Made by a program: the position numbers and the translations under genes
Shown: one piece after another, positions 1,912 through 63,344 of the stretch
Layout: the number at the start of each line of letters is the position of its first letter
Position numbering within the stretch: the first letter of the stretch is position 1
The notes under the pieces: model-generated
What the model was told of the DNA's origin: nothing
The model's input: the letters and a program-made list of their open reading frames with translations, nothing else
Database searches by the model: none
Source of the DNA: Candidatus Parcubacteria bacterium
GTDB taxonomy: Bacteria > Patescibacteriota > Minisyncoccia > Phycocordibacterales > Zambryskibacteraceae
DNA length: 64,000 nt
Reading direction: 5' to 3'
NCBI GenBank assembly: GCA_019658995.1
Contig: JAIFWN010000001.1
Coordinates: forward strand, 20,852 to 84,851

Positions 1912-4900
1912 TTGGACAACAAAGAAGCACAAAATGTGCCGCAGGGTGATGGGTGGCTTTCGATGTCGGAGGCGGCTCTTCATACACCCTACAGTTCTGA
2001 GTATCTCTCACTCCTTGCCCGTAAAGGTAAAATCTCCGCAAAGAAGATAGACAACACTTGGTACACCACCAGAGATATTCTTGATTCGTATATGAAGAAG
2101 CAGATGCTTCTTGCTCAGGTGCAAAACGGCGATATCTCTCCCGATCACATATCGGCGCCGAAAATAATTCCAACGCAGGAATCTGTTCCTCTCAAAACTG
2201 TGCGCTCATACGCTGATGATAGTCGCGATTACGACAGCGAGATCGAGAAGCAGAACCACATAAAGTCCATCGAGAATGCGCTAGAAAGAGTCGTAGACAA
2301 AAAATTCGGAAGAGTGGAGAAGTACGAAAGCCTGGTATCGAAAAATTTTTCAGCATTTCGTGATGCATTCGGCAGCAAAGCTATTGTTGTTTCGACTCTC
2401 GTAATTATCGTTTTGTTCACGATCATCCCGATACCCTTCGCCTTCAGCTTTTTTGAAAAGGGTCTGGACTTCGTCAAAGAGCTTGCAAGCGATGCCAATA
2501 CCATAATGGGCTACCGTCCCGGCACCCATAAGAACGAAATACTCCTCCTCGACAAAGACGGAAACATTAGCATCTTTGGCCATATAGAATCACATGTGTC
2601 AAACGGTACTGCTCCGATAGTGGTGGACTCTAAGACCCAGGTGGACAACCTGAATGCGGAATATCTGAACGACATGCATGCGGCCGACTTCACCCTGGCC
2701 TTCGTAACGCAAAACGGCAATGTTACCTCTGAAGATGTAAAGCTAGATGGTACCGTCGAAGTTGGTAAGACACTTGTAGTTAGCGGCGCAACGAAACTCT
2801 TGTCAGCGCTTGAAGTCGGCGGCGGACTCAGGGTGTTCGGCGATGCGGAAATCGGCAAAGCTTTAAGAGTTGTAGGCCCTGCCAGCTTCGAGTCTCTGGT
2901 GACTGTAAAAAATAACCTGGCCGTACAGAGAAACGTTTCCATAAGAGGCGGCCTTGAGATCGGCTCCGGCATTGAGGCAAAATCTGCCGCTTTCAGCAGT
3001 GTCGGCGTATCCGGAACCGTATCGGCCGCTCTCGGTAAGTTTGTCTCCGCAATCATAGACGATATATCGGCGGGAGCGCTGACGGTCTCCTCGACTACGG
3101 CCACGAGTGCCGTAGTTACTAACCTGAACTCCGTCAACCTCACCGGAGCAAGTTCGAGTCTTGCATACTTGACCTTTGATCTGGCTACGGGGACGTCGGC
3201 TACGACGACGAATCTGTTCTCTACCTATCTCACGGCAAGCGGAGCTACCACTACCACTCTCTTTGTAAATAAATTCGATATCCAGCAGGTTACTAATGGC
3301 AGGACAGTTATAGATGCCCGGCGTGTTACAGACTCCGCGCCGTCAGGAGATTTTATTACCTATACCAACGCTGCCGGCAACACGGCCCTCTTCAGGGTAG
3401 ACAACTCAGGTAATATTTTTGCCGGCGGTATTACCAACTCCGGAGCTCTGACTATTACCTCTGCTGTCACTCCGCAGTTTAGGATTCAGTATGATCCGAC
3501 GAACGAAAATACCACTTCCGTTTCTTCAGCCGGAGTTACGACCTTCGGCTTCAACGGCACAACTCCCCGCGCCATATGGATGCCGCAGGCAAACGCAACC
3601 GGAACATTCCAGTTTCAAGATTCATCCGCCAATACTATTTTGGATATTGATACGACAAATCAGAGGGTGGGTATTGGTACGACATCTCCAGCCACCGCTC
3701 TTGATCTGGTTGGCATCGAGGGCATTACCAACGGATATTTGAATGTCTTGCCGGTAAATACGAGCACCTTCAATGCCTTTGCCCTGAAGGGGCGGAATCT
3801 ATCAGCCGGTTCGTCTGTCTCGGTGCCTTACTTCGTGCCTACCGGTACGAATACAAATCAGAAGCTGGCTCTGGACCTCTTGGTCCAAGGGACACCGACG
3901 GATACTGTTGAGCGAGGCGTAGCCTGGATTGATATCACAGATGCCAATGAGACGAACCTGAACTTGGGAAACTACGAAGCCTTAAGCATAGGCAAGTTCA
4001 TAAACGGCCGCGGCAATATCTCCATGGTCGCTGGCGGAACAGGCGTGGTCAGGGACTTGGTATTGCAGGCTGGCGGAGGCAGGGTCGGCATCGGCACGAC
4101 CACTCCTCCAGCGCTACTCTCCGTAAATGATCCGGCCGGAATTGACTCACTTTATATTGGCTCATCGACACCCAAGCTTATAGTCAAACATACTGGTCTC
4201 GTCGGTATTGGCACAGCGGCTCCAAACAAGAAGCTAGATGTGAAGGGCGACATAGCTATCACATCAAGTACTTCGCCGGCAGTGGGTTTGGAGAGATCGC
4301 GCATAAGCGTGTATGACAATGCCATCGAACGCGGCTATATATCCAACTATGTACCAGTTGGCGTGGGCGGGACGAACTTCTCCTCATGGCGCTTCACTGT
4401 GGCCAATAACAGCACACTCTCTGAAGCGATGACTATTGACTATACAGGCAACATCGGTATCGGGACGACCACGCCAATTTCGCTCCTGCATCTGAGCGCT
4501 TCGGTTGTCAACAGCGGACTAGGCACTCTGAGATTATCTCGCCCAGACGCTACCAAAGAGAACTTCATTCGCTTCGATACCAATAATAGTAATTCGCAGT
4601 GGCTTATAGGAATAGACGACAGTACTGGCCAGTCAAGCAATTTCGAGATTATTCCTAATCTAGGAAATTCTGTGTTTGACATAACCACTTTGGGCAACGT
4701 CGGCATCGGGACGACTACGCCGACGTACCGACTGGATGTCTTAAGCGGGACTGGTAATACTGGTACGGGTGGCCATGATGCGAACATTAATGCCCTAGCT
4801 GTGACTGGACCTGATCTGGTGCAGACTTCAGCAGGCGGAAACATCTTTGTAACAACCAATTCTGACTTTGCCATAGACAGAGGAGGATCGATCGGCTTTG

Positions 4901-8281: not shown

Positions 8282-8579
8282 ATGGGGATGCCGGATAACC
8301 GCTCCGACGCAAGTCGGGGAGGAAAGTCCGAACATTCGGTTGTCTGTGTCCGCAATTGCGCATAGACAACAAGGGTAGCAGGTAACGCCTGCCGAGAGTA
8401 ATCTTAGAGGTGAGAACAGAAACGATCCGGTTAAGTCCGGCTGAAACGGCAAAATCCTTACCTGAATGCAAGGCCGTGCTCTGGAAGCAATTTCAGAGAG
8501 TGCCGCTAGAGGGCGTACGCGAGTACGCTCCCAGATAAATGGTTATCGATCACAAAATTCGGCTTATAGGCATCCATAA
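8282..8579 (+). ncRNA. rnpB: RNase P RNA (bacterial type A-like).
   Basis: There is no ORF here. The conserved P4 strands are present: GGGAGGAAAGUCCG near the 5' end and ACAAAAUUCGGCUUAUAGG near the 3' end (CR-I/CR-V). The P1 helix pairs ggatgcc (8286-8292) with ggcatcc (8569-8575). An intrinsic terminator follows. Confidence 0.85.
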
Positions 8580-8610
8580 AGCTCCTCTCACGAGGAGCTT
8601 TATGTTTGTG
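8578..8610 (+). terminator. Rho-independent terminator after rnpB.
   Basis: The hairpin is agctcctc-tcac-gaggagct (8580-8599), followed by the T-rich stretch ttatgtttgtg. Confidence 0.6.
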
Positions 8611-8624
8611 ATAAAATATCGAAC

Positions 8625-10946
8625 ATGCAATACACAGAAAAAATCGGTTTCTGGAGCGTACTATTATTGATATTTCTTCTGCCAATCTTCTTTCTCCCTA
8701 CCGGGCTCGTGCCGCTCGGCATCGCCAAGGTGTCGCTTATCACGCTTGCGGCGGTAGTCTCATTCGGTTCCATCCTCGTCAATATGTTTCGACATAAGAG
8801 CATAGCCCTGCCGAAGAGCTATCTGCTCTGGATGATTCTTATACTTCCGGCCGTATACATTTTCTCCGCTCTCTTCTCTGGCACGCCATCTCTCTCACTC
8901 TTCGGTTATGCGCTCGAGCCGGGCACGGCCGCTTCCATGGCCGCCTTCTCGGCGCTTTTATTTGTCTCGGCGATTTATTTCCGCGACAGGCTACATCTCA
9001 TCAGGGCGCTTTCAGCATTTTTCCTTTCTCTCTTCATACTCGCGATATTTGTAGCTATAAAAATAATTACGGGAGGCAACTCGATGACGTTCGGTGTGTT
9101 CTCGGGCAGTATGGGCAACCCTCTCGGCGCATGGACAGACCTCGGTATAGTCTTCGGACTCTTTGCCATTCTCTCGACTATCGCTCTCGAAATGCTTCCG
9201 GTTGCCGGCATGGTCAGGGCCTTATTGTGGATTGCCTTTGTCCTATCGACAGCACTTCTCGTAGTTATTAATTTTTCCACGGCGTGGGTGCTGGTTCTCG
9301 GGTCGTCAGTGGTGTTGATTGTCTACCTTATGACCGTAGAACGATCGGGAAATAGCAAAGGAAAAGGTTCCGGGGTGCTCCTGGCGGGAATTCTTGCCGC
9401 ACTGGCGGTCTTATTCATATGGAACCCGTCGATTGGAGCGAAGGATCTGGTTTCCAGGGTTGCCGAAGTCACTAATGTATCCAATGTCGACGTGCGTCCG
9501 AGCCTCAGCGCCACATTGGATGTGACTAAGAAGGTTATAAAAGGTCATCCGGTATTGGGCTCCGGGCCGAATACTTTCGACAAGGACTGGCTCCTATATA
9601 GGACTCCGGCTACGAATTCGACTCAATTCTGGAACGCGGCTTTCCCGTTCGGGTTCGGGTTTCTTCCCACAGCTGCCGCTGCCACCGGACTTCTAGGATC
9701 GGCGGCCTGGATAATCTTCTTCATCCTGCTTCTGATGCTCGGACTCAAGGCTCTGTCGAGAAGTCCCGAAAACAAATCGGACCGCTTCATGATCGTGTCC
9801 ACTCTTCTCGTATCTCTTTTCCTGTGGGTCGGAGCTTTCATGTATGTTCCATCCATAACAGTTCTTGCTATGACATTCATCTTTACCGGACTCTTCGTCG
9901 CTGCGGTGCAGGCATCCGGAGTGGTGGAAGAGCGCGAAGTCTTGTTCAGCAGGAATAAGATAACTCATTTTACCTCCGTACTGGCATCACTCCTTCTGGT
10001 AGTCGCCACGGCCGCCTTCGCTCTTGGAACTTATAAGAAGGTCGCCGCCGCAATTCACTTCGAGCGAGCCCTTATATATTCGCAAACGGCTGGGAAATCG
10101 CTCGACGACGTGGAAAGCGAACTCGGCAAAGCCATTACAACGTCCCCATCCGATCCGTACTGGGGAGCGGTTTCGCAAGTCGAGCTTACCCGCGCCAACA
10201 ATGCCTTAAACGATACTGCCGGCACCGATTCCAAAAGGCAGCAGACCTTCCAGAATTCACTTTCGGCATCGATCGCCGCACTCCAGAATGCCATCGCCCT
10301 GAACCCGAGTTACGCCAATTGGATTGCTCTTGGCAATGTTTACGAATCTCTGGTTCCCGCGCCCCTCTCTGTCCAGGGTGCCTACGATAGCGCCCTTGCC
10401 TCATACAAATCCGCCTCGGCCCTGAATCCAGAAAGCCCCGAAATACCGCTTCTTCTGGCGAGACTGGAACTCGACAATAAAGATGTGAAGGCTGCCCGCG
10501 AGCATATAGCAGAGGCTCTGGAGAGGAAGCAGGATTACGCTGATGCTTACTTCCTGCTGTCTCAGCTTGAAGTGAGAGAGAATAATCTCAATTCGGCCAT
10601 AAAGTCTGCGGAGACCGGTGCCGTACTCTCGCCAGGTAATGCCGGGGTACTGTTCGAACTTGGGCTTCTTAAGTATGCCAACAGGGATTATCGCGGAGCG
10701 GCAGATGCTCTGAAGAGGGCTCTTGCCATAGTGCCGGACTATGCCAATGCCAAGTATTATCTAGGTCTCTCGCTCGACAAGCTCGGACAGAAGGCAGAAG
10801 CTCTGAAGGAATTCGAGGATTTGGCCAAGACGAATGCCGACAATACCCTGGTAATTCAGATTCTTGCCAACCTCAGGGCCGGCAGGAGCGCTCTGACCGA
10901 AACTCCCGCAGTCACCGGCAAGACCGCGCCAATAAGCGGGCAATAG
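8625..10946 (+). CDS. Polytopic membrane protein with an O-antigen-ligase/Wzy-like N-terminal region and C-terminal TPR repeats.
   Basis: About 10 or more predicted TM helices span the N-terminal 450 aa. The C-terminal 300 aa carry TPR-like repeats (YANWIALGNVYESL, AYFLLSQLEV, AGVLFELGLLKYANRDYRGAADALKRALAIVPDYANAKYYLGLSLDKLGQKAEALKEFEDL). Confidence 0.5.
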   Translation: MQYTEKIGFWSVLLLIFLLPIFFLPTGLVPLGIAKVSLITLAAVVSFGSILVNMFRHKSIALPKSYLLWMILILPAVYIFSALFSGTPSLSLFGYALEPGTAASMAAFSALLFVSAIYFRDRLHLIRALSAFFLSLFILAIFVAIKIITGGNSMTFGVFSGSMGNPLGAWTDLGIVFGLFAILSTIALEMLPVAGMVRALLWIAFVLSTALLVVINFSTAWVLVLGSSVVLIVYLMTVERSGNSKGKGSGVLLAGILAALAVLFIWNPSIGAKDLVSRVAEVTNVSNVDVRPSLSATLDVTKKVIKGHPVLGSGPNTFDKDWLLYRTPATNSTQFWNAAFPFGFGFLPTAAAATGLLGSAAWIIFFILLLMLGLKALSRSPENKSDRFMIVSTLLVSLFLWVGAFMYVPSITVLAMTFIFTGLFVAAVQASGVVEEREVLFSRNKITHFTSVLASLLLVVATAAFALGTYKKVAAAIHFERALIYSQTAGKSLDDVESELGKAITTSPSDPYWGAVSQVELTRANNALNDTAGTDSKRQQTFQNSLSASIAALQNAIALNPSYANWIALGNVYESLVPAPLSVQGAYDSALASYKSASALNPESPEIPLLLARLELDNKDVKAAREHIAEALERKQDYADAYFLLSQLEVRENNLNSAIKSAETGAVLSPGNAGVLFELGLLKYANRDYRGAADALKRALAIVPDYANAKYYLGLSLDKLGQKAEALKEFEDLAKTNADNTLVIQILANLRAGRSALTETPAVTGKTAPISGQ

Positions 10947-10960
10947 AAGGACAACAATAA

Positions 10961-12637
10961 ATGGTTCGTAAAATATTCGGGTTTTTCTACAAGGAGACCG
11001 ACAAGCTCCATCAGGCGGCATTCCTTCTTGCTTTCTTTTCCATACTCTCTCAGGTGCTGGCGTTTCTCCGGGACAGGGCGCTTGCCCATGTCTTTGGGGC
11101 GGGAAGCGATCTCGACATTTATTACGCGGCATTCAGGATACCGGATTTTCTTTTTGTCACGGTTGCTTCAGTTGTCTCGCTCTCTGTCATCGTCCCGTTC
11201 ATTATCGAAAGAGAGAAGCAGGGCAGAGAATCAGTAAAGAGTTTCGTTGACGATATCTTCTCGTTCTTCTCGCTCCTGATCATCGGAATTTCTGCAGTAG
11301 CTTTTTTCCTCATACCGAAGCTTAGTCCGATATTGTTCAAGGGATTCTCAGGCGAAGCTCTTGCGGATGTCGTGCTTCTGTCTAGAATATTTCTTCTCTC
11401 GCCGATACTTCTCGGCATCTCGAACCTCTTCGGCTCGCTTACTCAGGCCTATAACCGCTTCCTTATATACGCCTTTGCACCGGTTCTCTATAATGCGGGC
11501 ATAATTTTCGGCATAACCTTCCTTGCTCCGCGTTTCGGCATATCCGGCGTGGCCTGGGGCGTGGTGGTAGGTTCGCTCCTTCACGTCTCGATCCAGATCC
11601 CCTTTGTGATCAGGATCGGGCTTATGCCAAGGTGGAAACTTTTCTTCGATTGGAGGTCGATAAAGAGGGTAGTGGGGCTCTCTTTTCCGAGAACGCTCAC
11701 GCTTTCGACCAACCATCTGTCCACTATCTTCCTTGTGTCGCTGGCCTCTCTCATGACAGCGGGCTCCATCTCCATTCTCTCCTTCTCGCAAAATATCTCT
11801 TCGGTACCTCTGTCTATCATCGGAGTCTCATACTCGCTCGCCGCCTTCCCGACCCTGACCCGCTACTTCTCGGACAAGAATATAAAAGCTTTCGCGGAGC
11901 AGATGGCTCTGACGGTACGTCATATAATCTTCTGGTCTCTGCCTGTCATGGCCCTCTTCATTGTATTGCGCGCCCAGATCGTCAGAGTACTTCTCGGTAC
12001 CGGCCGCTTTGACTGGAACGACACTAGGCTGACGGCCGCCGCCCTGGCTCTCTTTGCCGTATCAGCCCTAGCTCAGAGCCTGCTGCTCTTATTTATACGC
12101 GCTTTCTACTCGGCAGGTCATACCAGGAAGCCTCTTCTGATTAATATTATCTCGACCTTGGTTCTCATAGCTTCCGCCTATGCTGCCGTCAAGCTCTATT
12201 ATTCATACCCGTCTTTCGGATACTTCATAAATGCTCTTCTGAAAGTTGATGATGTCCCGGGTACGGTGGTCCTGATGCTTCCTCTCGGATACTCGGTAGG
12301 AACCATACTGAACGCCGTCATACACTGGATTGGCTTCGAAAAGGATTTCGGCAGATTCCCGAGGGAGACGTATCACACTTTGTTCGTGTCGTTTGCAGCT
12401 GCGGTCTTCACCGGTATCGGAGCTTATGTAGGACTGCATATCTTTGTCTCAATGTTCGACATCCGGACACTGTGGGGTGTGCTGTTCCAGGGCTTATTTG
12501 CCGGAGTATTCGGCGCCCTGACCGGACTTCTGACGCTCTGGCTTCTGCGATCAGGAGAACTCTATGAGTTTACCCATGCTATGAAGATGAAATTCCGCGG
12601 AGTCGAACCCGTTGCCGAGAATCCCGAAATCGTGTAG
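10961..12637 (+). CDS. murJ: Lipid II flippase MurJ (MviN family).
   Basis: The N-terminus LSQVLAFLRDRALAHVFGAGSDLDIYYAAFRIPDFLF and about 14 TM helices match MurJ architecture. Confidence 0.8.
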   Translation: MVRKIFGFFYKETDKLHQAAFLLAFFSILSQVLAFLRDRALAHVFGAGSDLDIYYAAFRIPDFLFVTVASVVSLSVIVPFIIEREKQGRESVKSFVDDIFSFFSLLIIGISAVAFFLIPKLSPILFKGFSGEALADVVLLSRIFLLSPILLGISNLFGSLTQAYNRFLIYAFAPVLYNAGIIFGITFLAPRFGISGVAWGVVVGSLLHVSIQIPFVIRIGLMPRWKLFFDWRSIKRVVGLSFPRTLTLSTNHLSTIFLVSLASLMTAGSISILSFSQNISSVPLSIIGVSYSLAAFPTLTRYFSDKNIKAFAEQMALTVRHIIFWSLPVMALFIVLRAQIVRVLLGTGRFDWNDTRLTAAALALFAVSALAQSLLLLFIRAFYSAGHTRKPLLINIISTLVLIASAYAAVKLYYSYPSFGYFINALLKVDDVPGTVVLMLPLGYSVGTILNAVIHWIGFEKDFGRFPRETYHTLFVSFAAAVFTGIGAYVGLHIFVSMFDIRTLWGVLFQGLFAGVFGALTGLLTLWLLRSGELYEFTHAMKMKFRGVEPVAENPEIV

Positions 12638-47921: not shown

Positions 47922-48004
47922 GCCCAGGTGGTGGAATGGTATACACGAGGGACTTAAAATCCCTTGGTCGCAAGACCTTGTGAGTTCGAGTCTCACTCTG
48001 GGCA
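47922..48004 (+). tRNA. tRNA-Leu (anticodon UAA), with a long variable arm.
   Basis: Acceptor GCCCAGG/UCUGGGC-A, anticodon stem AGGGA/UCCCU with loop CUUAAAA, T arm GUGAG-UUCGAGU-CUCAC. Confidence 0.85.
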
Positions 48005-56260: not shown

Positions 56261-57044
56261 TCTTCTTGTTCTTCCTAAACCAGGTCATCTGGCGCTTGGA
56301 ATACTGCCGAATAGCAATCTCAAGCCTCTCAATAAATTCTTTCTTAGTAAACTTGCCCTGTAGATATTCCGAAGTGAAACGGTATTCGAGCCCCAGTTCA
56401 TAAGCACGCTTCCTGTTTAGTTTTTTAGTCTCGCGCAATATGCCGGGAATTCTTTTTAGCAATCTCTCATGGATGCGCTTATCCAAATCTTTAGGTTTGA
56501 GGCCGATCCATATAAAATCATAATCGCTCCGGATTTTGACTCTGGGGATTTTTCCCAGAGTCCTGATAATTTCTATCGCTCGGATCAGTCGGACTCTATT
56601 ATTCGGATCTTTAATCTTGTGTTTGCCAAGCATTCTTTGCAACTCTTTCAGAGATCTTTTCTCCAGTTTCTTGCGGAGAATCGAATTCGGCTGCACCTCC
56701 GGCAGATCCATAGTCAGAGCGTCTATATAAAAACCGGTACCGCCGATGATTATAGGCAATTTATTTCTACCAAGAATGAACCTGATTGCATTAAGCGCCA
56801 TCGGCTTCCACTCTGCGGCAGTGAAGCGCTCTTTGGGGTCAGCCACATCCATGAGGTAGTGGGGAATACCCCTCATCTCGCCTTTGGTGATCTTACCTGT
56901 GCCAATATCCAAGCCTTTGTAGACCTGGCGCGAGTCAGCCGATATGATCTCGCCATTGAGCTTCTTGGCTAGTCGCACAGCCAAAGCACTCTTGCCCGAG
57001 GCAGTAGGCCCCACTATTACCAAGACTTTCTGCTTCCTAATCAC
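56181..57044 (-). CDS. miaA: tRNA dimethylallyltransferase MiaA.
   Basis: VLVIVGPTASGKSALAVRLAKKLNGEIISADSRQVYKGLDIGTGKIT is present. The start is taken at GTG 57044, because the longer ORF runs into tRNA-Leu. The 3' end overlaps the convergent DedA gene by 80 nt. Confidence 0.85.
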   Translation of the reverse strand: MIRKQKVLVIVGPTASGKSALAVRLAKKLNGEIISADSRQVYKGLDIGTGKITKGEMRGIPHYLMDVADPKERFTAAEWKPMALNAIRFILGRNKLPIIIGGTGFYIDALTMDLPEVQPNSILRKKLEKRSLKELQRMLGKHKIKDPNNRVRLIRAIEIIRTLGKIPRVKIRSDYDFIWIGLKPKDLDKRIHERLLKRIPGILRETKKLNRKRAYELGLEYRFTSEYLQGKFTKKEFIERLEIAIRQYSKRQMTWFRKNKKIRWFDSASGAFRATTRLLSARPKPKR

Positions 57045-57046
57045 TG

Positions 57047-57127
57047 TGCCGGGAGAGAGACTCGAACTCTCACCCCTTACGAGACACGATTTTGAGTCGT
57101 GCGCGTCTACCATTCCGCCATCCCGGC
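57047..57127 (-). tRNA. tRNA-Leu (anticodon CAA), with a long variable arm.
   Basis: Acceptor GCCGGGA/UCCCGGC-A, anticodon stem CACGA/UCGUG with loop CUCAAAA, T arm GAGAG-UUCGAGU-CUCUC. Confidence 0.85.
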
Positions 57128-57169
57128 CTATACCTACAATCTACGATAAATTGGTGTTAAAATCTATCC

Positions 57170-58129
57170 ATGTCAGAGATCTACAATGACGCTATCTTTT
57201 GGATTGAGGTCAACAAAATCCACCCCAACCCGTACCAGCCGCGCCGCGAGTTCGATCAGATGGCCCTCAAGAGTCTTGCCGACTCCATAAGGCAATACGG
57301 TGTACTCCAAGCCCTCGTGGTAACTCGCAAAGAAGTCGAGAAGCCCGATGGTGGTCTCGCTACCGAGTACGAGCTGATAGCCGGAGAGCGTCGTTTGCGT
57401 GCGGCTAAGCTCGCCGGCCTCACCCAGGTGCCCGCGCAGGTGCGGAATGGCGAGGAGACGGATCTCATGAAGCTCGAGCTCGCCATTATTGAGAATATCC
57501 AGCGCGAGGATCTGAATGCCGTTGACCGGGCCCGCGCTTTCGACCGACTGGTCAAGGAATTCGGCTTCAAGCATGCTGATATCGGTAAAAAGGTGGGGAA
57601 GAGCCGCGAGTACGTATCAAACACTCTGCGCATTCTCATGCTTCCGGAGCCGATTCTGCAAGCTCTGGCGGAAGGGAAGATCAACGAAGGCCATACCCGC
57701 CCGCTTATGATGCTTACAGACAGGCCACAGGAGCAGGAAACCCTGTTCAAAGAAATTGTTTTCAAAAAGATGAATGTTCGCGAGGCAGAGAGCATCGCCC
57801 GCAAAATCGCTTTTGAGAGAGCCAGGAAGCTTATGGATCCTGATCTCGTCGATCTTGAAGATAAGTTCAAGGAAACTCTGGGTACCCGCGTCAGAATAGA
57901 GAAAAAGGATGAGGGCGGCAAGATCACCATAGACTTCTTCTCCAAAGACGACCTGGTAGCACTTTTGCAAAAGCTTTCGCTGCAAGAGACGGCACCTCGG
58001 AATATAGTAAGCACTGAGAAGCCGGCTGAGCCGACCGAGGAAGAGAAAATTATAATGGCCGAGGGAGCCAAAGAAGCCATGGAAGCTCCTGAAGAAGATC
58101 TCTACTCCGTCAAAAACTTTTCAATATAA
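57170..58129 (+). CDS. parB: ParB/Spo0J-family partition protein; orphan, with no adjacent parA.
   Basis: NPYQPRREFDQMALKSLADSIRQYGVLQALVV and LIAGERRLRAAKLAG (the ParB box) are present, plus a C-terminal dimerisation region. GC-richer than the core genes. Confidence 0.85.
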   Translation: MSEIYNDAIFWIEVNKIHPNPYQPRREFDQMALKSLADSIRQYGVLQALVVTRKEVEKPDGGLATEYELIAGERRLRAAKLAGLTQVPAQVRNGEETDLMKLELAIIENIQREDLNAVDRARAFDRLVKEFGFKHADIGKKVGKSREYVSNTLRILMLPEPILQALAEGKINEGHTRPLMMLTDRPQEQETLFKEIVFKKMNVREAESIARKIAFERARKLMDPDLVDLEDKFKETLGTRVRIEKKDEGGKITIDFFSKDDLVALLQKLSLQETAPRNIVSTEKPAEPTEEEKIIMAEGAKEAMEAPEEDLYSVKNFSI

Positions 58130-58156
58130 AGAAAAGAGCACCCCTGTTGGGAATGC

Positions 58157-58744
58157 TCAGAATTTCCGATGGGAGATCAGATACATGCGTGCCAGATCTC
58201 TTTCTTGCGGATGATACTGGTAAGCCGTAGTGAGGATGAGGCGCGAATTCGCGTTCTTCACCAAAGTCCATGAGACCCTGGGACCGTAACCGATCGAATT
58301 TTTCGCCGGGCGGAAGGTATTCTCCGTCTCCGCGCCGAGAGCGAGCGGTCCGCTGACTACCGCCTCCACGACTGACATATGATAGAGAGCTCGCTGAGAG
58401 AGGAACGGTGACACTTCGGTGAAGAAGGATGTCCTGCCGAGGCTGAACGAGTTGCGTACATCGAGGAGCCAGTTGTTCTTCCTGCCCCACTGACGCCAGA
58501 TCATCGTCTCGAGCGAGCTTCCACCGCGGCGGTAGCCAAGACCACCGAAGATGTTCATGTTGCCGGGCGGACCAGCGCGTCGCACATTACCGATGAGCCA
58601 TGAGGCTGCGAACCAATGCTGATCGAGCTTCATCGTCGGATGGATGATCAGTCTCGACATCTGATCCGGATCGCTCTGCTGCGATGAGAGCGGGGAAGCC
58701 AGCGCTACGAGCGCGGCCATGAGCAAGGCTGTTTGCCGAAGCAT
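58157..58744 (-). CDS. Secreted hypothetical protein (195 aa) with a beta-strand-like C-terminus ending in Phe, which is an OMP-like signature; GC-rich.
   Basis: The signal peptide is MLRQTALLMAALVALASPLSSQQ. The C-terminus ...RLILTTAYQYHPQERDLARMYLISHRKF shows alternating hydrophobicity and a terminal F. Confidence 0.4.
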   Translation of the reverse strand: MLRQTALLMAALVALASPLSSQQSDPDQMSRLIIHPTMKLDQHWFAASWLIGNVRRAGPPGNMNIFGGLGYRRGGSSLETMIWRQWGRKNNWLLDVRNSFSLGRTSFFTEVSPFLSQRALYHMSVVEAVVSGPLALGAETENTFRPAKNSIGYGPRVSWTLVKNANSRLILTTAYQYHPQERDLARMYLISHRKF

Positions 58745-58796
58745 GTTGTCTCCAAAGAAGGGGTGCCTCAGGCCACCCTAGCACGAAGCTTAGATG

Positions 58797-58825
58797 TTGA
58801 CAAATCCCAGATTTATGTGTATGAT
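58797..58825 (+). promoter_or_regulatory. Near-consensus promoter TTGACA, 17-nt spacer, TATGAT, with the RBS AGGGAGG 8 nt before the 58883 ATG.
   Basis: The -35 element is at 58797-58802 and the -10 at 58820-58825. The SD sequence is at 58868-58874. Confidence 0.6.
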
Positions 58826-58882
58826 GCAAGAGCTAGGTGAAAAACAGTAGCCTAGAGATCTTTAACTAGGGAGGAACAGCCC

Positions 58883-59464
58883 ATGTCGGGAACAGCCTTG
58901 CCTGGTTGGTACGTCAATTTCCAAACCGCGGTTCTTCAACAGCTCCCGCGGCCGGGCGTACTCAGCCAACACGATGCAGAGAAGTGGATTAGCACACAAG
59001 CAAAGTTGAAACGCGAATTAACGGAGACCCTTCTGTCCGATGTACTGCTCCAGCAAGTACCGGTAGATACAACTCTATCGTGGAAAGACATGCTAGAGTC
59101 GGCTGGGCGCCATTTGTATCTAGAGGGTAGTCCCGAGATGATCGAGGCAATGCCACGCGGTCGGGCGAAAAAGATCGAGGCGTACTTCTTCAGGCTCGGC
59201 TATGAGATGGATATCCATGAGGTGAAGTATAAGTACAAAGTGCACGGTCTCAGGCCTCTGGACCCATATTCGCTGGCGGCGATCAATGCCCACGACCAGG
59301 ACTTTGCCGACGAGTGCAACAATGCGACCTACTGGGAAGTAGAAGCGCAAGATGGTTGGCGTAGTCTAGCTTTCCACGGGGGTCCCAAAGACCGCATGGC
59401 CACTCTCGTCTCTCGCCAGAGAAGGTGGGAGGGAAGCTGGTGGTTCGCTGGAATTCCACTATAG
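58883..59464 (+). CDS. Hypothetical protein (193 aa), paralog A of a tandem pair.
   Basis: It shares MPRG...(F/Y)RL..EM...DPY.LAA...TYW...G(W/N)W with the 59662 gene. I recognise no family. Confidence 0.45.
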   Translation: MSGTALPGWYVNFQTAVLQQLPRPGVLSQHDAEKWISTQAKLKRELTETLLSDVLLQQVPVDTTLSWKDMLESAGRHLYLEGSPEMIEAMPRGRAKKIEAYFFRLGYEMDIHEVKYKYKVHGLRPLDPYSLAAINAHDQDFADECNNATYWEVEAQDGWRSLAFHGGPKDRMATLVSRQRRWEGSWWFAGIPL

Positions 59465-59480
59465 TAGTAACAAATTAAAT

Positions 59481-59519
59481 AGGCTCCTCGAGATTTCGGG
59501 AAGCCTGTTTTTTTATTTC
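59481..59519 (+). terminator. Rho-independent terminator after paralog A.
   Basis: The hairpin aggctcctcg-agattt-cgggaagcct is followed by guuuuuuuauuuc. Confidence 0.6.
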
Positions 59520-59540
59520 TTCCATCAAAAATTTTTCTAT

Positions 59541-59569
59541 TTGACAGTAATTATAATAAGTTGTAGGGT
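59541..59569 (+). promoter_or_regulatory. Promoter-like TTGACA, 17-nt spacer, TAGGGT upstream of paralog B. The same -10 hexamer occurs at 19659.
   Basis: The -35 element is at 59541-59546 and the -10 at 59564-59569. Confidence 0.4.
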
Positions 59570-59661
59570 CAAGATGTAGTTCTTTGAGTGCTGTTGCGAA
59601 GCCGGATGGCTAGCTTAATCCCAACAGGGACAGCACGTGACAGATCCCAGAGGAGAGTCAC

Positions 59662-60234
59662 ATGCCAGTAGCAAACGATTTTGGTGTAGTCACCATGGGT
59701 AGGTTAGCGAGGAGGCTCGCTGAAGCCGGTTGGGAACCCGAAGACCTGGAGTCACTCACGCCCGAGATGGCTCGTCGATTTCTGGATGTCCATCATGAGC
59801 TCGCAGAAGTGCGACCCATGGATCGGATTGTCTGTCGCGTCCGTGTGGACCGCAGCCGGACTCCCCGTCAGGCCCTCTCGTATTACAAAGGAAATGCCAT
59901 AATCACATCGGCTGTGGACTCGATGCCTAGGGGCGAGGGCGAAGAAGTGGATGTAATCTTCTACCGCCTCTCAAGCGAAATGTCCGACGAGTACATTGAG
60001 GAAGCGTACGGGCATGAACACAAGACCGATCCGTACGCCGTTCTCGCAGTTCACCAGCTCAAACCCGACTTCTTCCACGCTCATCCTGGCGGTACGTACT
60101 GGAAAGATGTCGCAGGTAATTGGTGTCATCTCATGATCACTGGGCGTAGGTCATCACAGTATCTTTATGCAGAACAAGGAAATGCTGGTATCGGATGGGC
60201 CTCGGATGTGTGGTTGGGGTTCGTTCGCAAATGA
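59662..60234 (+). CDS. Hypothetical protein (190 aa), paralog B of a tandem pair.
   Basis: MPRGEGEEVDVIFYRLSSEMSDEYIEEAYGHEHKTDPYAVLAVHQLKPDFFHAHPGGTYWKDVAGNW aligns with paralog A. Confidence 0.45.
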   Translation: MPVANDFGVVTMGRLARRLAEAGWEPEDLESLTPEMARRFLDVHHELAEVRPMDRIVCRVRVDRSRTPRQALSYYKGNAIITSAVDSMPRGEGEEVDVIFYRLSSEMSDEYIEEAYGHEHKTDPYAVLAVHQLKPDFFHAHPGGTYWKDVAGNWCHLMITGRRSSQYLYAEQGNAGIGWASDVWLGFVRK

Positions 60235-60246
60235 TGATTGGCCCCT

Positions 60247-60285
60247 GAGCCTCGCGCATGCGCGAGGCTCATTTCTTTTTATTTC
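60247..60285 (+). terminator. Palindromic hairpin terminator after paralog B. Its T-tract overlaps the topA 3' end.
   Basis: The hairpin gagcctcgcg-catg-cgcgaggctc is followed by auuucuuuuuauuuc. Confidence 0.6.
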
Positions 60286-62432
60286 TTCTTTCTTGCGAAA
60301 CCGCGCTGTTTCTTGGGCTCTTTCAAAATTTCTAAAGCTCTATCAAGGTTTATGGTATAGACATCATCGGTTTTGAGAGAGCGAAAGTCTTTCTGATGGA
60401 CTATGTAAGGTCCGAAGCGGCCGACGTTCGCTGTGATCTCTTCTCCGGTTTCCGGATGTTTCCCGAGTTTTCTCGGCAAAGATAAATATACTAGAGCATC
60501 TTGTAGACTGACTTCCTCCAGATTTTTATTTTTCGGTACGCTCGATTTACGCGCTTTGATTTTCTTCTTCTTGTCATCCTCGCCGACCTGCACATAAGGT
60601 CCGAAGCGGCCAGTTTTGAGGAATACATTTAGTCCGGACTCGGGATCTACGCCTATCGGGACATCGGCCTTAATCTCTTCGCCCTTTATAGTGAGAGCTC
60701 CCGTGCAGTCAGGGAAGCGCGAGCAGGAGAGGAAGCGTCCGCCCCGCCCTAATTTGATGATCATATCCGAGCCGCAGACAGGGCACTTGAACTCTTTGGG
60801 AGCGGCACCTAGGTCGGTGGCTTTGGCCATCTTCTCCTTGCTCTTCACATCGGCATGGAATGGGCCGTAGAAGTCAGTCAGAGTCTTAACATACGTGCGT
60901 TTGCCGAGGGCTATCTCATCAAGCTCATCCTCCATCTCAGCGGTGAAGTCGTCGCTGATATATTTGTCGAAGTTCTCCTCAAGGAAACCGGAGACTACCT
61001 CGCCGACGTCTGTCGGCACCAAGGCCTTTTGCTGCTTCTCCACATAACCTCGGTCAACGACAGTTTTGATGATCGAGGCGTAAGTGGAAGGTCGTCCGAT
61101 GCCGCGCTTCTCGAGCTCTTTAATCAGTCCGGCTTCGGAGTATCGCGGCGGTGGTTCAGTCTGCTTCTCCTCAGCTAAGATATTTTCCAGATCGAGCTTT
61201 TCTCCAATTTTAAACGATGGGAGTATCACATCCTCACCCTGGGCTGCCGGATCGGCCTTAGTCCAGCCATCGAAGAGGATGCGCGAGCCATTCAGTGCAA
61301 AGTCTGGGATTTTATTGTCTTCAATATTGGCCGTAACCTTGGTACGCATAATGAGCGCGTCCTTCATTTGCGTAGCGAGCGTTCGGCTCCAGATCAGTTT
61401 GTAGAGCTTCTTCTGTTCGTCTGTCGCTCCGGCAGTGACAATGTTCATATGCGTCGGGCGGATGGCTTCGTGCGCCTCCTGGGCGTTCTTCGACTTCTTC
61501 ACAAAGGCGTGCGACTCGTAGTAGCTTGCTCCGAACTTCTCCTTCACCGTTCTCTCGATATCCGCGCGGGCTTGAGCCCCGAGATTGAAAGAGTCTGTAC
61601 GCATATAAGTAATGTGCCCGGCTTCGTAGAGGCGCTGGGCTACCATCATAGTGCGGGAAGGGGCAAAGCCCAGGCGCGAGCTTGCTGCCTGCTGAAGAGT
61701 CGAGGTGATGAAAGGGGGTTTGGGTGCGCGCTTAACCTCCGTCTCTTTGATATCCGTCACCTTCCAGCTGCCGGTCTTGCCCAACTCTAAAATTCTGTCC
61801 ACCTCTTTCCTGTCTCTCGGTTCTACTGAGCAGTCGAAGGCGAGCTTATTTAAAATAGCTATGATTTTCCAGAAGGTCTCCGGCTTGAAAGCGCGTATCT
61901 CCCGCTCGCGCTCTACTAGTATGCGAAGCGCTGGCGATTGCACACGGCCGGCCGAGAGGCCATAGCGCACTTTCTTCCATATCAGTCCCGAAAGATCGTA
62001 GCCGACGAGACGGTCCAAGACTCTGCGAGCCTCCTGAGCCTCCTTGAGATTTTCATCGATCTCCCTAGGGTTATTGATAGCTTCTTCTACAGCTTCTTTG
62101 GTAATTTCATGAAAGACGCTTCTTTTCGGTTTCTTCAAGCCTATGGCCTCGGATATGTGCCAGGCAATGGCCTCGCCCTCGCGGTCGGGGTCGGTGGCGA
62201 GGATCACTTCGTCAGCTTTTTTAGCGAGATTCTTAATATCGGCAATGATATGTTCCTTGCCCTTAACTACTTCGTAGTGCGGTATGAAGCCGCCCGGCAC
62301 ATCGATGGCCTTTTTATTGCTCTTCGGGAGATCGCGAACGTGGCCGACAGAGGCGACCACGCGGAAATCCTTACCGAGATATTTTTCTATAGTCTTCGCC
62401 TTCGACGGAGACTCAACTATTACCAAACGCAT
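60279..62432 (-). CDS. topA: DNA topoisomerase I.
   Basis: The Toprim N-terminus MRLVIVESPSKAKTIEKYLG is present. The catalytic Tyr region YMRTDS is present. C-terminal Zn ribbons (CPVCGSDM...CSRFPDC) follow. Confidence 0.95.
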   Translation of the reverse strand: MRLVIVESPSKAKTIEKYLGKDFRVVASVGHVRDLPKSNKKAIDVPGGFIPHYEVVKGKEHIIADIKNLAKKADEVILATDPDREGEAIAWHISEAIGLKKPKRSVFHEITKEAVEEAINNPREIDENLKEAQEARRVLDRLVGYDLSGLIWKKVRYGLSAGRVQSPALRILVEREREIRAFKPETFWKIIAILNKLAFDCSVEPRDRKEVDRILELGKTGSWKVTDIKETEVKRAPKPPFITSTLQQAASSRLGFAPSRTMMVAQRLYEAGHITYMRTDSFNLGAQARADIERTVKEKFGASYYESHAFVKKSKNAQEAHEAIRPTHMNIVTAGATDEQKKLYKLIWSRTLATQMKDALIMRTKVTANIEDNKIPDFALNGSRILFDGWTKADPAAQGEDVILPSFKIGEKLDLENILAEEKQTEPPPRYSEAGLIKELEKRGIGRPSTYASIIKTVVDRGYVEKQQKALVPTDVGEVVSGFLEENFDKYISDDFTAEMEDELDEIALGKRTYVKTLTDFYGPFHADVKSKEKMAKATDLGAAPKEFKCPVCGSDMIIKLGRGGRFLSCSRFPDCTGALTIKGEEIKADVPIGVDPESGLNVFLKTGRFGPYVQVGEDDKKKKIKARKSSVPKNKNLEEVSLQDALVYLSLPRKLGKHPETGEEITANVGRFGPYIVHQKDFRSLKTDDVYTINLDRALEILKEPKKQRGFARKKK

Positions 62433-62471: not shown

Positions 62472-63344
62472 TCAGAAGGTTTTTCTCACTTCGCCGAGTT
62501 GTTCCACGATAAGCCCTTTGATTTCGAGGAGAGAGAGTACGGCGTTAGCTTTGGAGATGTCCAGTTTGGATTTACGGACCAGTTCATCGCGTTCGTGGGG
62601 CTCGCCCAAAATTTTTATAAAAACTTTTTCTTCGTCTGTCAGATCCTCGGTATTAAATAGCGTGTCATGGCCTTCGCTCTTTAAGCTTAAAAGCTCCAAT
62701 ATATCCGCTGAGTCGCGTATGAGAGCGGCGCCGAGACGTATGAGCATGTGCGGACCCTCGGAAGTCGAAGAGGTGATAGGTCCGGGCACCGCACCAACCT
62801 CTCTATTATATTCGGTGGCCAGGCGGGAAGTGATGAGAGTGCCGGATCTCTTCTCCGCTTCGATAACTATAGTGGCGTGGCACATACCGGCCATAATCCT
62901 GTTTCTTTTGGGGAAGGTCCAGATGCCGGCAGGCATTTCGTCATCGTACTCCGATATTAGGCCGCCGCCCGCATCAACGATTTCCTGGGCCAGCCTTACA
63001 TGCGAACGCGGGTGGAGTACTTTGGTCGAGAGGCCGGAGCCGGGCAGGGCGACAGTTTGAAGACCTGCTTCTATAGCTGCACGGTGCGCCAGAGAGTCTA
63101 TACCGAGAGCCAAGCCGCTGACGATGGTTATCGGGTAGCCAGCCAAGCCGAGTATGAGCGAATGGCATACCTCGCTGCTGTAAGAAGTGTATTTGCGTGA
63201 GCCGACTACGGCCAAGAGTTTATTGCCCTCTGTCGGAGGCGAACCCCAGAGGCGGAGCTTTTTCGGCGGGTCGTTGATCTCCCGCAGTAATGCCGGCCAC
63301 TCGTCTTGTGGGAGCTCTCTTATCATGTGGTAATATTCTATCAA
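62472..63344 (-). CDS. dprA: DNA processing protein DprA (Smf).
   Basis: LLAVVGSRKYTSYS...VSGLALGIDSLAHRAAIEAGLQTVALPGSGL...GGGLISEY...FPKRNRIMAG..IEAEKRSGTLITSRLATEYNREVGAVPG is present. The start is TTG at 63344 or ATG at 63326. Confidence 0.85.
   Translation of the reverse strand: MIEYYHMIRELPQDEWPALLREINDPPKKLRLWGSPPTEGNKLLAVVGSRKYTSYSSEVCHSLILGLAGYPITIVSGLALGIDSLAHRAAIEAGLQTVALPGSGLSTKVLHPRSHVRLAQEIVDAGGGLISEYDDEMPAGIWTFPKRNRIMAGMCHATIVIEAEKRSGTLITSRLATEYNREVGAVPGPITSSTSEGPHMLIRLGAALIRDSADILELLSLKSEGHDTLFNTEDLTDEEKVFIKILGEPHERDELVRKSKLDISKANAVLSLLEIKGLIVEQLGEVRKTF

What the first reader, a model, noticed from the sequence alone, without database searches (positions are those of the whole stretch)
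57047..60285. tRNA-Leu(CAA)-adjacent GC-rich island: orphan ParB, OMP-like secreted protein, and two tandem paralogs with private promoters and terminators
Immediately after tRNA-Leu(CAA) and miaA comes a ParB/Spo0J gene without parA. Next is a convergent secreted protein with a beta-barrel-OMP-like C-terminus (...YLISHRKF). Then come two paralogous ~190-aa proteins of unknown function, sharing MPRG..(F/Y)RL..EM...DPY.LAA...TYW...GxW. The first paralog is driven by a near-perfect TTGACA-17-TATGAT promoter with a strong SD, the second by TTGACA-17-TAGGGT. Each is closed by an intrinsic terminator (59481-59519, 60247-60285). ParB-like proteins and tRNA insertion are typical of integrative or plasmid-derived modules. 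The highly expressed paralog pair is a candidate novel accessory system, for example toxin/immunity-like or host-interaction, that I cannot place in any known family.
Basis: partly seen in the sequence, partly recalled or inferred. Interest (0 to 1): 0.6.

Follow-up and report, generated by a model that had tools for sequence, protein, structure and literature searches.

The report
Two stranded hypermutation-target genes beside ParB
The two mystery paralogs are divergent members of a large unnamed family of small lectin-fold proteins that candidate-phyla (Patescibacteria) bacteria diversify with diversity-generating retroelements, but here they sit alone, with no retroelement within 64 kb, in a variable slot between the core genes parB and topA.

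Summary
Most of the described features are present. The main interpretation, a tRNA-borne ParB island carrying a novel toxin/immunity-like pair, is not supported.

- **Core backbone:** tRNA-Leu(CAA) and parB belong to a backbone (clpB…miaA–tRNA-Leu–parB–[slot]–topA–dprA) conserved in 54 related Parcubacteria/Paceibacteria genomes.
- **Cargo:** Only 58130-60278 is strain-specific. It lies in a parB–topA slot that varies from about 0 to 2.7 kb among relatives.
- **Family:** An exhaustive profile search places both paralogs in a family with no Pfam model. It has 885 clusters at E≤1e-3, and every named member is Patescibacteria.
- **DGR link:** In two homologous loci the last ~94 nt of the gene is a variable region, followed by a template repeat, Avd and a reverse transcriptase. 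There, 19/19 and 10/10 mismatches fall on template adenines.
- **This window:** There is no template repeat, Avd or reverse transcriptase in 64 kb. The C-terminal regions lack the DGR codon signature, and both proteins are long-branch outliers. They are probably uncoupled, fixed copies, although a remote DGR elsewhere in the genome is not excluded.
- **Secreted 195-aa protein:** It remains an orphan, and the outer-membrane-protein reading is unsupported.

This is a new member of a known kind, of modest interest.

The parts
57046..57127 (-). tRNA-Leu(CAA). A core gene, divergent from parB and co-oriented with miaA. Not an island boundary.
   Evidence: Detected by ARAGORN and Rfam tRNA at 60.1 bits. 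It holds the same position next to parB in 18 of 18 relatives checked. No repeat of its 3' end exists elsewhere in the window.
57170..58129 (+). Chromosomal-type ParB/Spo0J. A core gene of the conserved backbone, with no parA in the window.
   Evidence: Pfam ParB_N, HTH_ParB and ParB_C. TIGR00180 at 158.9 bits against a cutoff of 58.45. Orthologs of 55-84% identity sit in the same synteny in 54 genomes. No ParA Walker A motif in the window.
58130..60278 (.). Strain-specific cargo of 2.15 kb in the variable parB-topA slot.
   Evidence: The parB-topA gap ranges from -1 to 2695 bp across relatives. Its content differs: nothing (L005, L006, L008), an unknown 212-aa gene, or relA/spoT in 25 distant relatives. 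None of the three window genes has a homolog in these loci.
58157..58744 (-). Orphan 195-aa protein with an N-terminal signal-peptide-like segment. Function unknown and outer-membrane-protein status unproven.
   Evidence: No family in Pfam, NCBIfam, PHROGs or PADLOC. No PDB sequence match and no plasmid match. Only two relatives were found, both from Hainich groundwater 0.1-µm metagenomes, at 52% identity and ending ...YLIWHQKL. GC3 is 0.69, z = 2.5.
58136..58158 (-). Terminator hairpin between the convergent parB and 195-aa genes.
   Evidence: Found by the scan. The fold gives -13.2 kcal/mol, z -3.6, followed by a U-tract on the minus strand.
58797..58825 (+). Near-consensus sigma-70-type promoter (TTGACA-17-TATGAT) for paralog 1. 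A GGGAGG Shine-Dalgarno sequence follows at 58870-58875, 7 nt before the ATG.
   Evidence: The site matches 11 of 12 positions. It is one of 3 such sites in 64 kb against 0.6 expected. The Shine-Dalgarno sequence is read from the sequence.
58883..59464 (+). Paralog 1 (193 aa). A divergent member of the Patescibacteria DGR variable-protein family. Its N-terminal module of ~45 aa differs from the family norm, and its C-terminal VR-equivalent lies at about 59369-59461.
   Evidence: A family profile built without the window proteins gives E 4.9e-28, 114 bits, at a library size of 1.8e9. The N-terminal 45 aa match P0002, which supports ATG 58883 as the start. It keeps 8 of 14 VR scaffold positions, with NNY at 6 of 9 and GNY at 0 of 4 signature codons.
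59477..59510 (+). Intrinsic terminator of paralog 1.
   Evidence: The hairpin folds at -17.2 kcal/mol, z -3.45, and is followed by U7.
59541..59569 (+). Possible weak promoter for paralog 2 (TTGACA-17-TAGGGT).
   Evidence: Read from the sequence. The -10 hexamer matches only 3 of 6, and the scan did not report the site.
59662..60234 (+). Paralog 2 (190 aa). A divergent full-length member of the same family: an N-terminal three-helix segment followed by an alpha/beta lectin-like domain. Its degenerate VR-equivalent lies at about 60130-60231.
60246..60271 (+). Intrinsic terminator of paralog 2, lying just before the convergent topA stop codon.
   Evidence: An 11-bp stem with 8 G-C pairs and a U-tract. 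The fold gives -21.8 kcal/mol, z -5.0.
60279..62432 (-). topA. A core gene that forms the right border of the variable slot.
   Evidence: tblastn finds orthologs of 58-85% identity downstream of parB in the relatives.

Best explanation
The region is a conserved chromosomal backbone (miaA, tRNA-Leu(CAA), parB, topA, dprA). It has a variable slot between parB and topA, which in this Parcubacteria genome holds three strain-specific genes.

**What the paralogs are.** Two of the three genes are divergent members of a large, unnamed, Patescibacteria-restricted family of ~200-aa proteins. These proteins have no signal peptide. They consist of an N-terminal helical segment and a C-type-lectin-like domain. 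The last ~31 residues follow the scaffold F-x-R-W-xxx-R-x-V-x-V-x-R-xxxx-W-x-D-x-WWFAG.

**What that C-terminus does in canonical members (shown).** It is the variable region (VR) of a diversity-generating retroelement (DGR). A template repeat (TR) is transcribed and then reverse-transcribed with errors at adenines. The cDNA replaces the VR, which randomises a ligand-binding surface.

**The window copies (inferred).** They have their own promoters and terminators. There is no TR, Avd or reverse transcriptase within 64 kb. Their VRs share no DNA similarity with each other and lack the TR-derived codon signature. Both proteins are long-branch outliers. They are therefore most likely former DGR targets, now expressed as fixed-sequence lectin-fold binding proteins whose ligand is unknown.

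**The third gene.** It encodes an unrelated orphan protein that appears to be secreted.
For: **Backbone and slot**
- The ParB-seeded genome scan and tblastn show the same gene order in 54 loci.
- The tRNA sits next to parB in 18 of 18 loci checked.
- The parB-topA gap is -1 to 2695 bp, with differing content.

**Family membership**
- A profile of the two paralogs alone retrieves 885 cluster representatives at E≤1e-3 and 488 at E≤1e-10.
- A family profile without the paralogs scores them at E 4.9e-28 and 2.3e-23.
- Every named member is from Paceibacterota, Yonathbacteria or Patescibacteria, and all are annotated 'hypothetical protein'.
- There is no real Pfam hit in any of 68 members scanned, and no PDB sequence hit.

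**DGR link**
- L066: VR 10533-10626 against TR 11007-11100, with 19 of 19 mismatches at TR adenines.
- L069: VR 9832-9926 against TR 10298-10392, with 10 of 10 mismatches at TR adenines. Both loci have Avd and a YADD reverse transcriptase adjacent.
- Family-wide, VR columns templated by codons with A at position 1 or 2 have a mean entropy of 2.56 bits. The other columns have 0.56 bits.

**Fold**
- The model has pLDDT 85.7.

**Absence of a DGR here**
- No TR was found by blastn or tblastn.
- No reverse transcriptase or Avd was found by tblastn.
- Signature codons: NNY at 6 of 9 and GNY at 0-1 of 4 sites, against 7-9 of 9 and 2-4 of 4 (3-4 in eight of nine) in canonical members.
- Core-domain identity is 24% between the paralogs and 31-36% (median) to canonical members. 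Canonical members share 58% with one another.

**Literature**
- CPR DGRs form their own clade, and their targets lack transmembrane or other recognisable domains (PMC8144416).
Against: - Only 64 kb of the genome is visible. DGRs can act on remote targets, so a TR and reverse transcriptase elsewhere cannot be excluded.
- Six of the nine homolog contexts examined also lack a cassette within 8-10 kb, yet they keep the codon signature.
- The scaffold and codon tests assume the canonical VR register. The wider family contains many members with other VR spacings, so deviation alone does not prove decay.
- No expression data or ligand is known.
Confidence: 0.72

Rival explanations
1. The paralogs, or one of them, are live remote targets of a DGR encoded outside the 64-kb window. 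Their C-termini are still being rewritten from a cognate template repeat.
For: - The family is a proven DGR target family.
- Most homologs examined (6 of 9 contexts) also have no cassette within 8-10 kb yet carry the DGR codon signature. This implies remote templating or very recent uncoupling.
- Patescibacteria are enriched in DGRs (PMC8144416).
Against: - There is no TR, Avd or reverse transcriptase in 64 kb.
- The two VR-equivalents share no detectable DNA similarity, so one TR could not serve both.
- NNY and GNY codon signatures are at background level.
- Scaffold residues that adenine mutagenesis cannot change are substituted.
Confidence: 0.22
2. The whole stretch 57047-60285, ParB included, is an integrative or plasmid-derived island inserted at tRNA-Leu(CAA).
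For: - A tRNA lies next to an unpaired ParB, and hypothetical genes follow it.
- In several relatives 3-5 kb of extra genes do sit next to this tRNA, although on its 3' (miaA) side.
Against: - ParB and the tRNA are syntenic core genes in 54 and 18 relatives respectively.
- The ParB-side genes lie 5' of the tRNA.
- There is no integrase domain and no att-like repeat.
- GC content and codon usage are typical except for the 195-aa gene.
Confidence: 0.03
3. The paralog pair is a toxin/immunity, toxin-antitoxin or anti-phage defence module.
For: - Two small adjacent genes of unknown function with strong expression signals.
- DGR-diversified conflict or sensor proteins are known in other bacteria (PMC10907252, abstract only).
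Against: - No PADLOC or PHROG hits.
- The two genes are homologs of each other rather than a dissimilar pair. Each has its own terminator, so they are not an operon.
- Homologs elsewhere are single genes with no conserved partner.
- The family was not found on viral contigs.
Confidence: 0.04

Closest known systems
Target (variable) proteins of Patescibacteria/CPR diversity-generating retroelements ('DGR clade 2' of Roux et al. 2021, PMC8144416; first surveyed by Paul et al. 2017, which I cite from memory and could not read here)
   Same: - Sequence family membership, at E 1e-23 to 1e-28 against a profile that excludes the window proteins.
- Size of ~200 aa, with no signal peptide, transmembrane segment or recognisable domain.
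- A C-terminal lectin-like domain ending in the WWFAG-type VR scaffold.
- Homologs have TR, Avd and reverse transcriptase adjacent, with purely adenine-directed mismatches.
   Different: - The window copies have no TR, Avd or reverse transcriptase within 64 kb.
- They lack the NNY/GNY codon signature and are substituted at scaffold positions.
- They are long-branch outliers.
- Paralog 1 has swapped its N-terminal module.
Structurally characterised DGR variable proteins: Mtd of Bordetella phage BPP-1, TvpA of Treponema denticola, archaeal AvpA (from my own knowledge)
   Same: - A C-type-lectin-type fold carrying the variable residues at the C-terminus.
- Diversification through AAY codons in the template.
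   Different: - No detectable sequence similarity. A profile search of PDB sequences found nothing.
- Mtd is a phage tail-fibre tip and TvpA a lipoprotein, whereas this family appears to be cytoplasmic.
Chromosomal ParB/Spo0J (TIGR00180)
   Same: Three-domain architecture, scores above the curated cutoffs, and a conserved chromosomal neighbourhood.
   Different: - No parA in the window or next to parB in the relatives.
- No consensus parS within 3 mismatches in the window.

Membership tests
DGR variable (target) protein | Homology to proteins whose C-terminus is a demonstrated VR | tested here: met
   The self-free family profile gives E 4.9e-28 and 2.3e-23. Family members P0179 and P0161 have VR/TR pairs with 19 of 19 and 10 of 10 adenine-specific mismatches.
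DGR variable (target) protein | C-type-lectin-type fold hosting the VR | tested here: inconclusive
DGR variable (target) protein | A cognate template repeat that differs from the VR only at adenines | tested here: not met
   There is no repeat of either 3' end, and no canonical TR, anywhere in the 64-kb window. The rest of the genome could not be searched.
DGR variable (target) protein | DGR reverse transcriptase, usually with Avd, in the same genome | tested here: not met
   tblastn with the L069 reverse transcriptase and Avd finds nothing in the window, with best E values of 1.8 and 0.2. This covers the window only. The whole genome cannot be tested with these tools.
DGR variable (target) protein | TR-derived codon signature in the VR (NNY at Asn-templated sites, GNY at Asp-templated sites) | tested here: not met
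   para1 has 6 of 9 and 0 of 4; para2 has 6 of 9 and 1 of 4. Nine canonical members have 7-9 of 9 and 2-4 of 4 (3-4 in eight of them). The background NNY fraction is 0.45-0.57. The test assumes the canonical register.
Chromosomal ParB/Spo0J partition protein | ParB_N, HTH and dimerisation domains above the curated cutoffs | tested here: met
Chromosomal ParB/Spo0J partition protein | Conserved chromosomal position in relatives, as opposed to a mobile element | tested here: met
   54 loci share flanking core genes (clpB, miaA, tRNA-Leu, topA, dprA) wherever the contig allows.
Chromosomal ParB/Spo0J partition protein | Partner ParA and parS sites | tested here: not met
   There is no ParA Walker A motif and no parS within 3 mismatches in the window. 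Both could lie elsewhere in the genome.
tRNA-integrated genomic island | Integrase, and a direct repeat of the tRNA 3' end at the far border | tested here: not met
   None of the four genes has an integrase domain. The only other match to the tRNA 3' end is the T-arm of another tRNA-Leu at 47982. The repeats found by the repeat finder are short chance matches.
tRNA-integrated genomic island | Absent from close relatives | tested here: inconclusive
   Met for 58130-60278. Not met for ParB and the tRNA.
Outer-membrane beta-barrel protein (for the 195-aa protein) | Match to a known OMP family or fold | tested here: not met
   No Pfam or NCBIfam hit at E≤1. No PDB sequence hit.
Outer-membrane beta-barrel protein (for the 195-aa protein) | Conserved C-terminal aromatic beta-signal | tested here: not met
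   The window protein ends ...YLISHRKF, but its only homolog ends ...YLIWHQKL.
Toxin-antitoxin or anti-phage defence system | Match to known defence or TA protein models, and a conserved two-gene architecture | tested here: not met
   PADLOC gives 0 hits. Homologs occur as single genes.

The most novel reading that the evidence does not exclude
The pair are domesticated former DGR targets. On this reading, lectin-fold binders that were once hypermutated have been frozen, duplicated or recruited side by side, and placed under strong private promoters because they now recognise a fixed intracellular ligand (for example a host- or phage-derived molecule). More broadly, this unnamed family of at least 885 clusters would be a cytoplasmic diversifiable sensor class peculiar to Patescibacteria. 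That would bear on the open question of whether CPR DGR targets really are non-membrane proteins.
Probability: 0.15. Interest if true: 0.55.

Novelty: new member of a known kind. Interest (0 to 1): 0.3.

Why it matters
**What the result does**
- It turns an apparent 'unplaceable novel accessory system' into an identifiable one: two members of the DGR target family of candidate-phyla bacteria.
- It corrects the island model, because ParB and the tRNA are core genes.

**Two points of modest wider value**
- The family is large (885 clusters at 50% identity), restricted to Patescibacteria, and has no Pfam model or solved structure. A family definition with its VR scaffold (F-x-RW-xxx-R-x-V-x-V-x-R-xxxx-W-x-D-x-WWFAG) would improve annotation of thousands of 'hypothetical proteins'.
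- Copies like these, without a cassette and with decayed signatures, offer a natural comparison. They can be set against live targets to ask what happens to a hypervariable binding protein once diversification stops.

Tried and rejected
- **Library scans.** Pfam, NCBIfam, PHROGs and PADLOC scans of the three unknown proteins returned nothing usable.
- **Word-seeded homolog searches.** Each paralog on its own found only itself, plus one N-terminal fragment match. Only the exhaustive profile search opened up the family.
- **First AlphaFold run.** With a 2-sequence alignment it was useless, at pLDDT 41.7.
- **Fold searches.** Foldseek against the PDB gave no significant hit, and the afdb50 library was unavailable.
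- **Exact-sequence lookup.** The lookup of paralog 2 found no contig on record, so the rest of this genome could not be reached.
- **Viral origin.** The viral-contig scan for the family found none, so a phage origin was rejected.
- **RNA elements.** Rfam on 56900-60500 found only the tRNA, so a riboswitch or leader was rejected.
- **Island borders.** att-like repeats and direct repeats flanking the cargo are absent.
- **Recent tandem duplication.** Rejected, because each paralog is closer to other family members than to its neighbour.
- **Scaffold erosion as proof of decay.** I considered using it as proof and downgraded it to suggestive. The wider family has many non-canonical VR spacings.
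- **Literature.** Paul et al. 2017 could not be read.

Full report
**1. What is in the sequence**

The window comes from a Candidatus Parcubacteria genome. NCBI holds paralog 2 as an identical protein and paralog 1 as an otherwise identical protein with a later annotated start, under locus tags KW796_00465 and KW796_00470 on a 121,467-bp contig.

Between 56.1 and 63.4 kb the layout is as follows:
- miaA (-), ending at a probable GTG start near 57043
- tRNA-Leu(CAA), 57046-57127 (-)
- parB, 57170-58129 (+)
- a 195-aa ORF, 58157-58744 (-)
- paralog 1, 58883-59464 (+)
- paralog 2, 59662-60234 (+)
- topA, 60279-62432 (-)
- dprA, 62472-63344 (-)

The two paralogs are real but distant homologs, with 25% identity over 128 aa and E 7e-10.

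The expression signals were checked as follows:
- The promoter TTGACA-17-TATGAT at 58797-58825 matches 11 of 12 positions. It is one of three sites that good in 64 kb, against 0.6 expected from Markov shuffles.
- The proposed second promoter has only TAGGGT as its -10 hexamer, and the scan did not call it.
- All three hairpin-plus-U-tract terminators fold well: -17.2, -21.8 and -13.2 kcal/mol, with z scores from -3.5 to -5.0.

'GC-rich' is an overstatement. The region is 52.9% GC against 51.5% for the window, the 89th percentile. Only the 195-aa gene is unusual, at 57.3% GC with a GC3 z score of 2.5. Codon usage of all three cargo genes lies within the range of the window's core genes.

**2. 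ParB and the tRNA are core genes; only 58130-60278 is accessory**

A scan of one genome per species with the ParB protein returned 54 loci from Parcubacteria, Paceibacteria and Nomurabacteria metagenome-assembled genomes. ParB identity was 55-84%.

- tblastn with the window's proteins shows the same order in these loci wherever the contig reaches: clpB, a 57-aa protein, VTT, miaA, parB, topA, dprA.
- tRNA-Leu(CAA) lies 20-290 bp upstream of parB in all 18 loci checked.
- ParB is therefore the lineage's chromosomal ParB, not island cargo. It has no adjacent parA in any relative, and there is no ParA Walker motif or consensus parS in the window.
- The 3' end of the tRNA faces miaA.
- There is no att-like repeat of the tRNA and no integrase domain.

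The parB-topA interval, by contrast, is a variable slot:
- Its length ranges from -1 to 2695 bp.
- It is empty in L005, L006 and L008 (ParB 77-82% identical).
- It holds an unknown 212-aa gene in four close relatives.
- It holds relA/spoT in 25 more distant relatives.

None of the three window genes has any tblastn, phmmer or profile hit in these 54 loci.

**3. The paralogs belong to a large unnamed family**

- Curated libraries gave nothing.
- Word-seeded searches found only the proteins themselves. The one exception was a 106-aa protein that shares paralog 1's first ~45 residues. That match supports ATG 58883 as the start, with GGGAGG 7 nt upstream.
- An exhaustive HMMER search of 1.84 billion cluster representatives, using a profile of just the two paralogs, found 885 proteins at E≤1e-3 and 488 at E≤1e-10. 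Most are 140-226 aa and match the C-terminal ~140 residues.
- A profile built from 59 family members without the window proteins scores paralog 1 at E 4.9e-28 and paralog 2 at E 2.3e-23, at that library size.
- Every member that carries a name is a 'hypothetical protein' from Paceibacterota, Yonathbacteria or Patescibacteria.
- None of 68 members scanned has a real Pfam domain, and the profile finds nothing among PDB sequences.
- The family was not found on viral contigs.

**4. The family is a DGR target family**

With the deeper alignment, AlphaFold2 gave a confident model of paralog 2 (pLDDT 85.7, pTM 0.72). It shows three N-terminal helices followed by an alpha/beta domain.

The C-type-lectin fold is the classic scaffold of DGR variable proteins, so I looked for DGR parts around homologs.

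| Locus (protein) | Variable region (VR) | Template repeat (TR) | Mismatches at TR adenines | Avd and reverse transcriptase |
|---|---|---|---|---|
| L066 (P0179) | 10533-10626 | 11007-11100 | 19 of 19 | Both adjacent |
| L069 (P0161) | 9832-9926 | 10298-10392 | 10 of 10 | Both adjacent; 352-aa RT with GNLTSQ and YADD motifs |
| L058 (P0208) | about 8519-8615 | 8955-9051 | 7 of 12 | Neither within 8 kb |

Across the family alignment, VR columns templated by codons with A in position 1 or 2 have a mean entropy of 2.56 bits (n=15). The remaining columns have 0.56 bits (n=16). The invariant scaffold that remains is F-RW-R-V-V-R-W-D-WWFAG.

This matches the published description of CPR DGRs. They form a clade of their own, and their targets lack transmembrane or other recognisable domains (PMC8144416).

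**5. Status of the two window copies**

Shown:
- The 64-kb window contains no repeat of either gene's 3' end and no canonical TR.
- It contains no reverse transcriptase or Avd detectable with the L069 proteins.
- The two VR-equivalents have no DNA similarity to each other, so one TR could not serve both.
- In the canonical register, nine homologs with available DNA have NNY at 7-9 of 9 Asn-templated codons. They have GNY at 2-4 of 4 Asp-templated codons, 3-4 in eight of the nine. This includes the six with no cassette nearby. The window copies have 6 of 9 and 0-1 of 4, close to background.
- They keep 8 and 4 of 14 scaffold positions, against 9-14 (median 13) in the 59 aligned members.
- Outside the VR they are long-branch outliers: 24% identity to each other and 31-36% (median) to canonical members, whereas canonical members share 58%. 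This also argues against a recent tandem duplication.

Inferred: they are former DGR targets that are now expressed from their own promoters as fixed-sequence binding proteins.

Caveats:
- The rest of the genome could not be searched.
- DGRs can act on remote targets.
- The wider family includes many members with other VR spacings, so deviation from the canonical scaffold is suggestive rather than decisive.

I put about 0.7 on the overall account and about 0.2 on 'still live, templated from elsewhere'.

**6. The 195-aa protein**

- Its N-terminus looks like a signal peptide.
- It has no hits in any library, in PDB sequences or in plasmids.
- Its only relatives are two short contigs from Hainich groundwater 0.1-µm filtrates, at 52% identity.
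- The terminal Phe that suggested an outer-membrane beta-signal is Leu in the homolog.
- It is best described as an orphan, probably secreted protein. It is compositionally the most foreign gene of the three.

**7. Verdict**

- The island, plasmid and toxin-immunity interpretation is mostly wrong.
- The paralogs are new, divergent and probably DGR-uncoupled members of a known kind of system.
- Interest is modest. The useful by-products are a defined VR scaffold for a large unannotated Patescibacteria family, and a candidate case of domesticated or decaying DGR targets.

Noticed in passing
window 57040-57127 (-); relatives L001, L002, L009, L010, L012, L050: tRNA-Leu(CAA) is followed within about 3 nt by the likely GTG start of miaA, on the same strand. 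From general knowledge, MiaA makes i6A37 on tRNAs that read UNN codons, a class that includes this tRNA. In six relatives 3-5 kb of other genes are inserted between the tRNA and miaA, which makes this a second variable slot.
   Followed up: partly
L011, L014, L017-L021, L023-L032, L034, L039, L043, L045, L048, L049, L052, L054 (parB-topA interval): In 25 more distant relatives the parB-topA slot holds a relA/spoT homolog (HD_4, RelA_SpoT and TGS domains). Four close relatives instead carry an unknown 212-aa gene with no Pfam hit. No relA/spoT lies at this position in the window.
   Followed up: partly
L066 12022-12024 (also L067, L068): The DGR reverse transcriptase next to family member P0179 is interrupted by a single in-frame TGA. 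The interruption appears in three replicate groundwater assemblies, even though the VR/TR pair shows 19 of 19 adenine-specific mismatches. It could be a pseudogene, read-through or recoding.
   Followed up: no
L058 7784-9106: Family member P0208 lies directly downstream of tRNA-Gln. It is followed by a TR-like copy of its VR, rich in AAC codons, with 7 of 12 mismatches at adenines. There is no Avd or reverse transcriptase within 8 kb, so this may be a remnant DGR or a split one.
   Followed up: partly
window 58883-59020; protein P0002: Paralog 1's first ~45 residues (GWYxxFQTAVLQQLPRPG...) are shared with a 106-aa protein whose remainder is unrelated. The other family members have a different N-terminal helical segment. 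This suggests that N-terminal modules have been shuffled onto the lectin-like domain.
   Followed up: no
window 60406-60422 and 60595-60611: An exact 17-nt direct repeat (TAAGGTCCGAAGCGGCC) lies inside the 3' part of topA. It probably reflects repeated C-terminal modules of the protein.
   Followed up: no
window 39492 (-) and 44598 (-): Two other near-perfect sigma-70-type promoters occur in the window: TTGACA-16-TATAAT (12 of 12) and TTGACT-16-TATAAT (11 of 12).
   Followed up: no
window 1912-7788 (+): A very long ORF of 1958 aa with a TTG start lies at the left of the window. It was not examined.
   Followed up: no
L060 2008-2379 and L061 1083-1448: A 23S_rRNA_IVP/bAvd-like gene lies about 6 kb upstream of family member P0206, inside a pilin and prepilin-peptidase cluster. 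No TR or reverse transcriptase was detected nearby.
   Followed up: no
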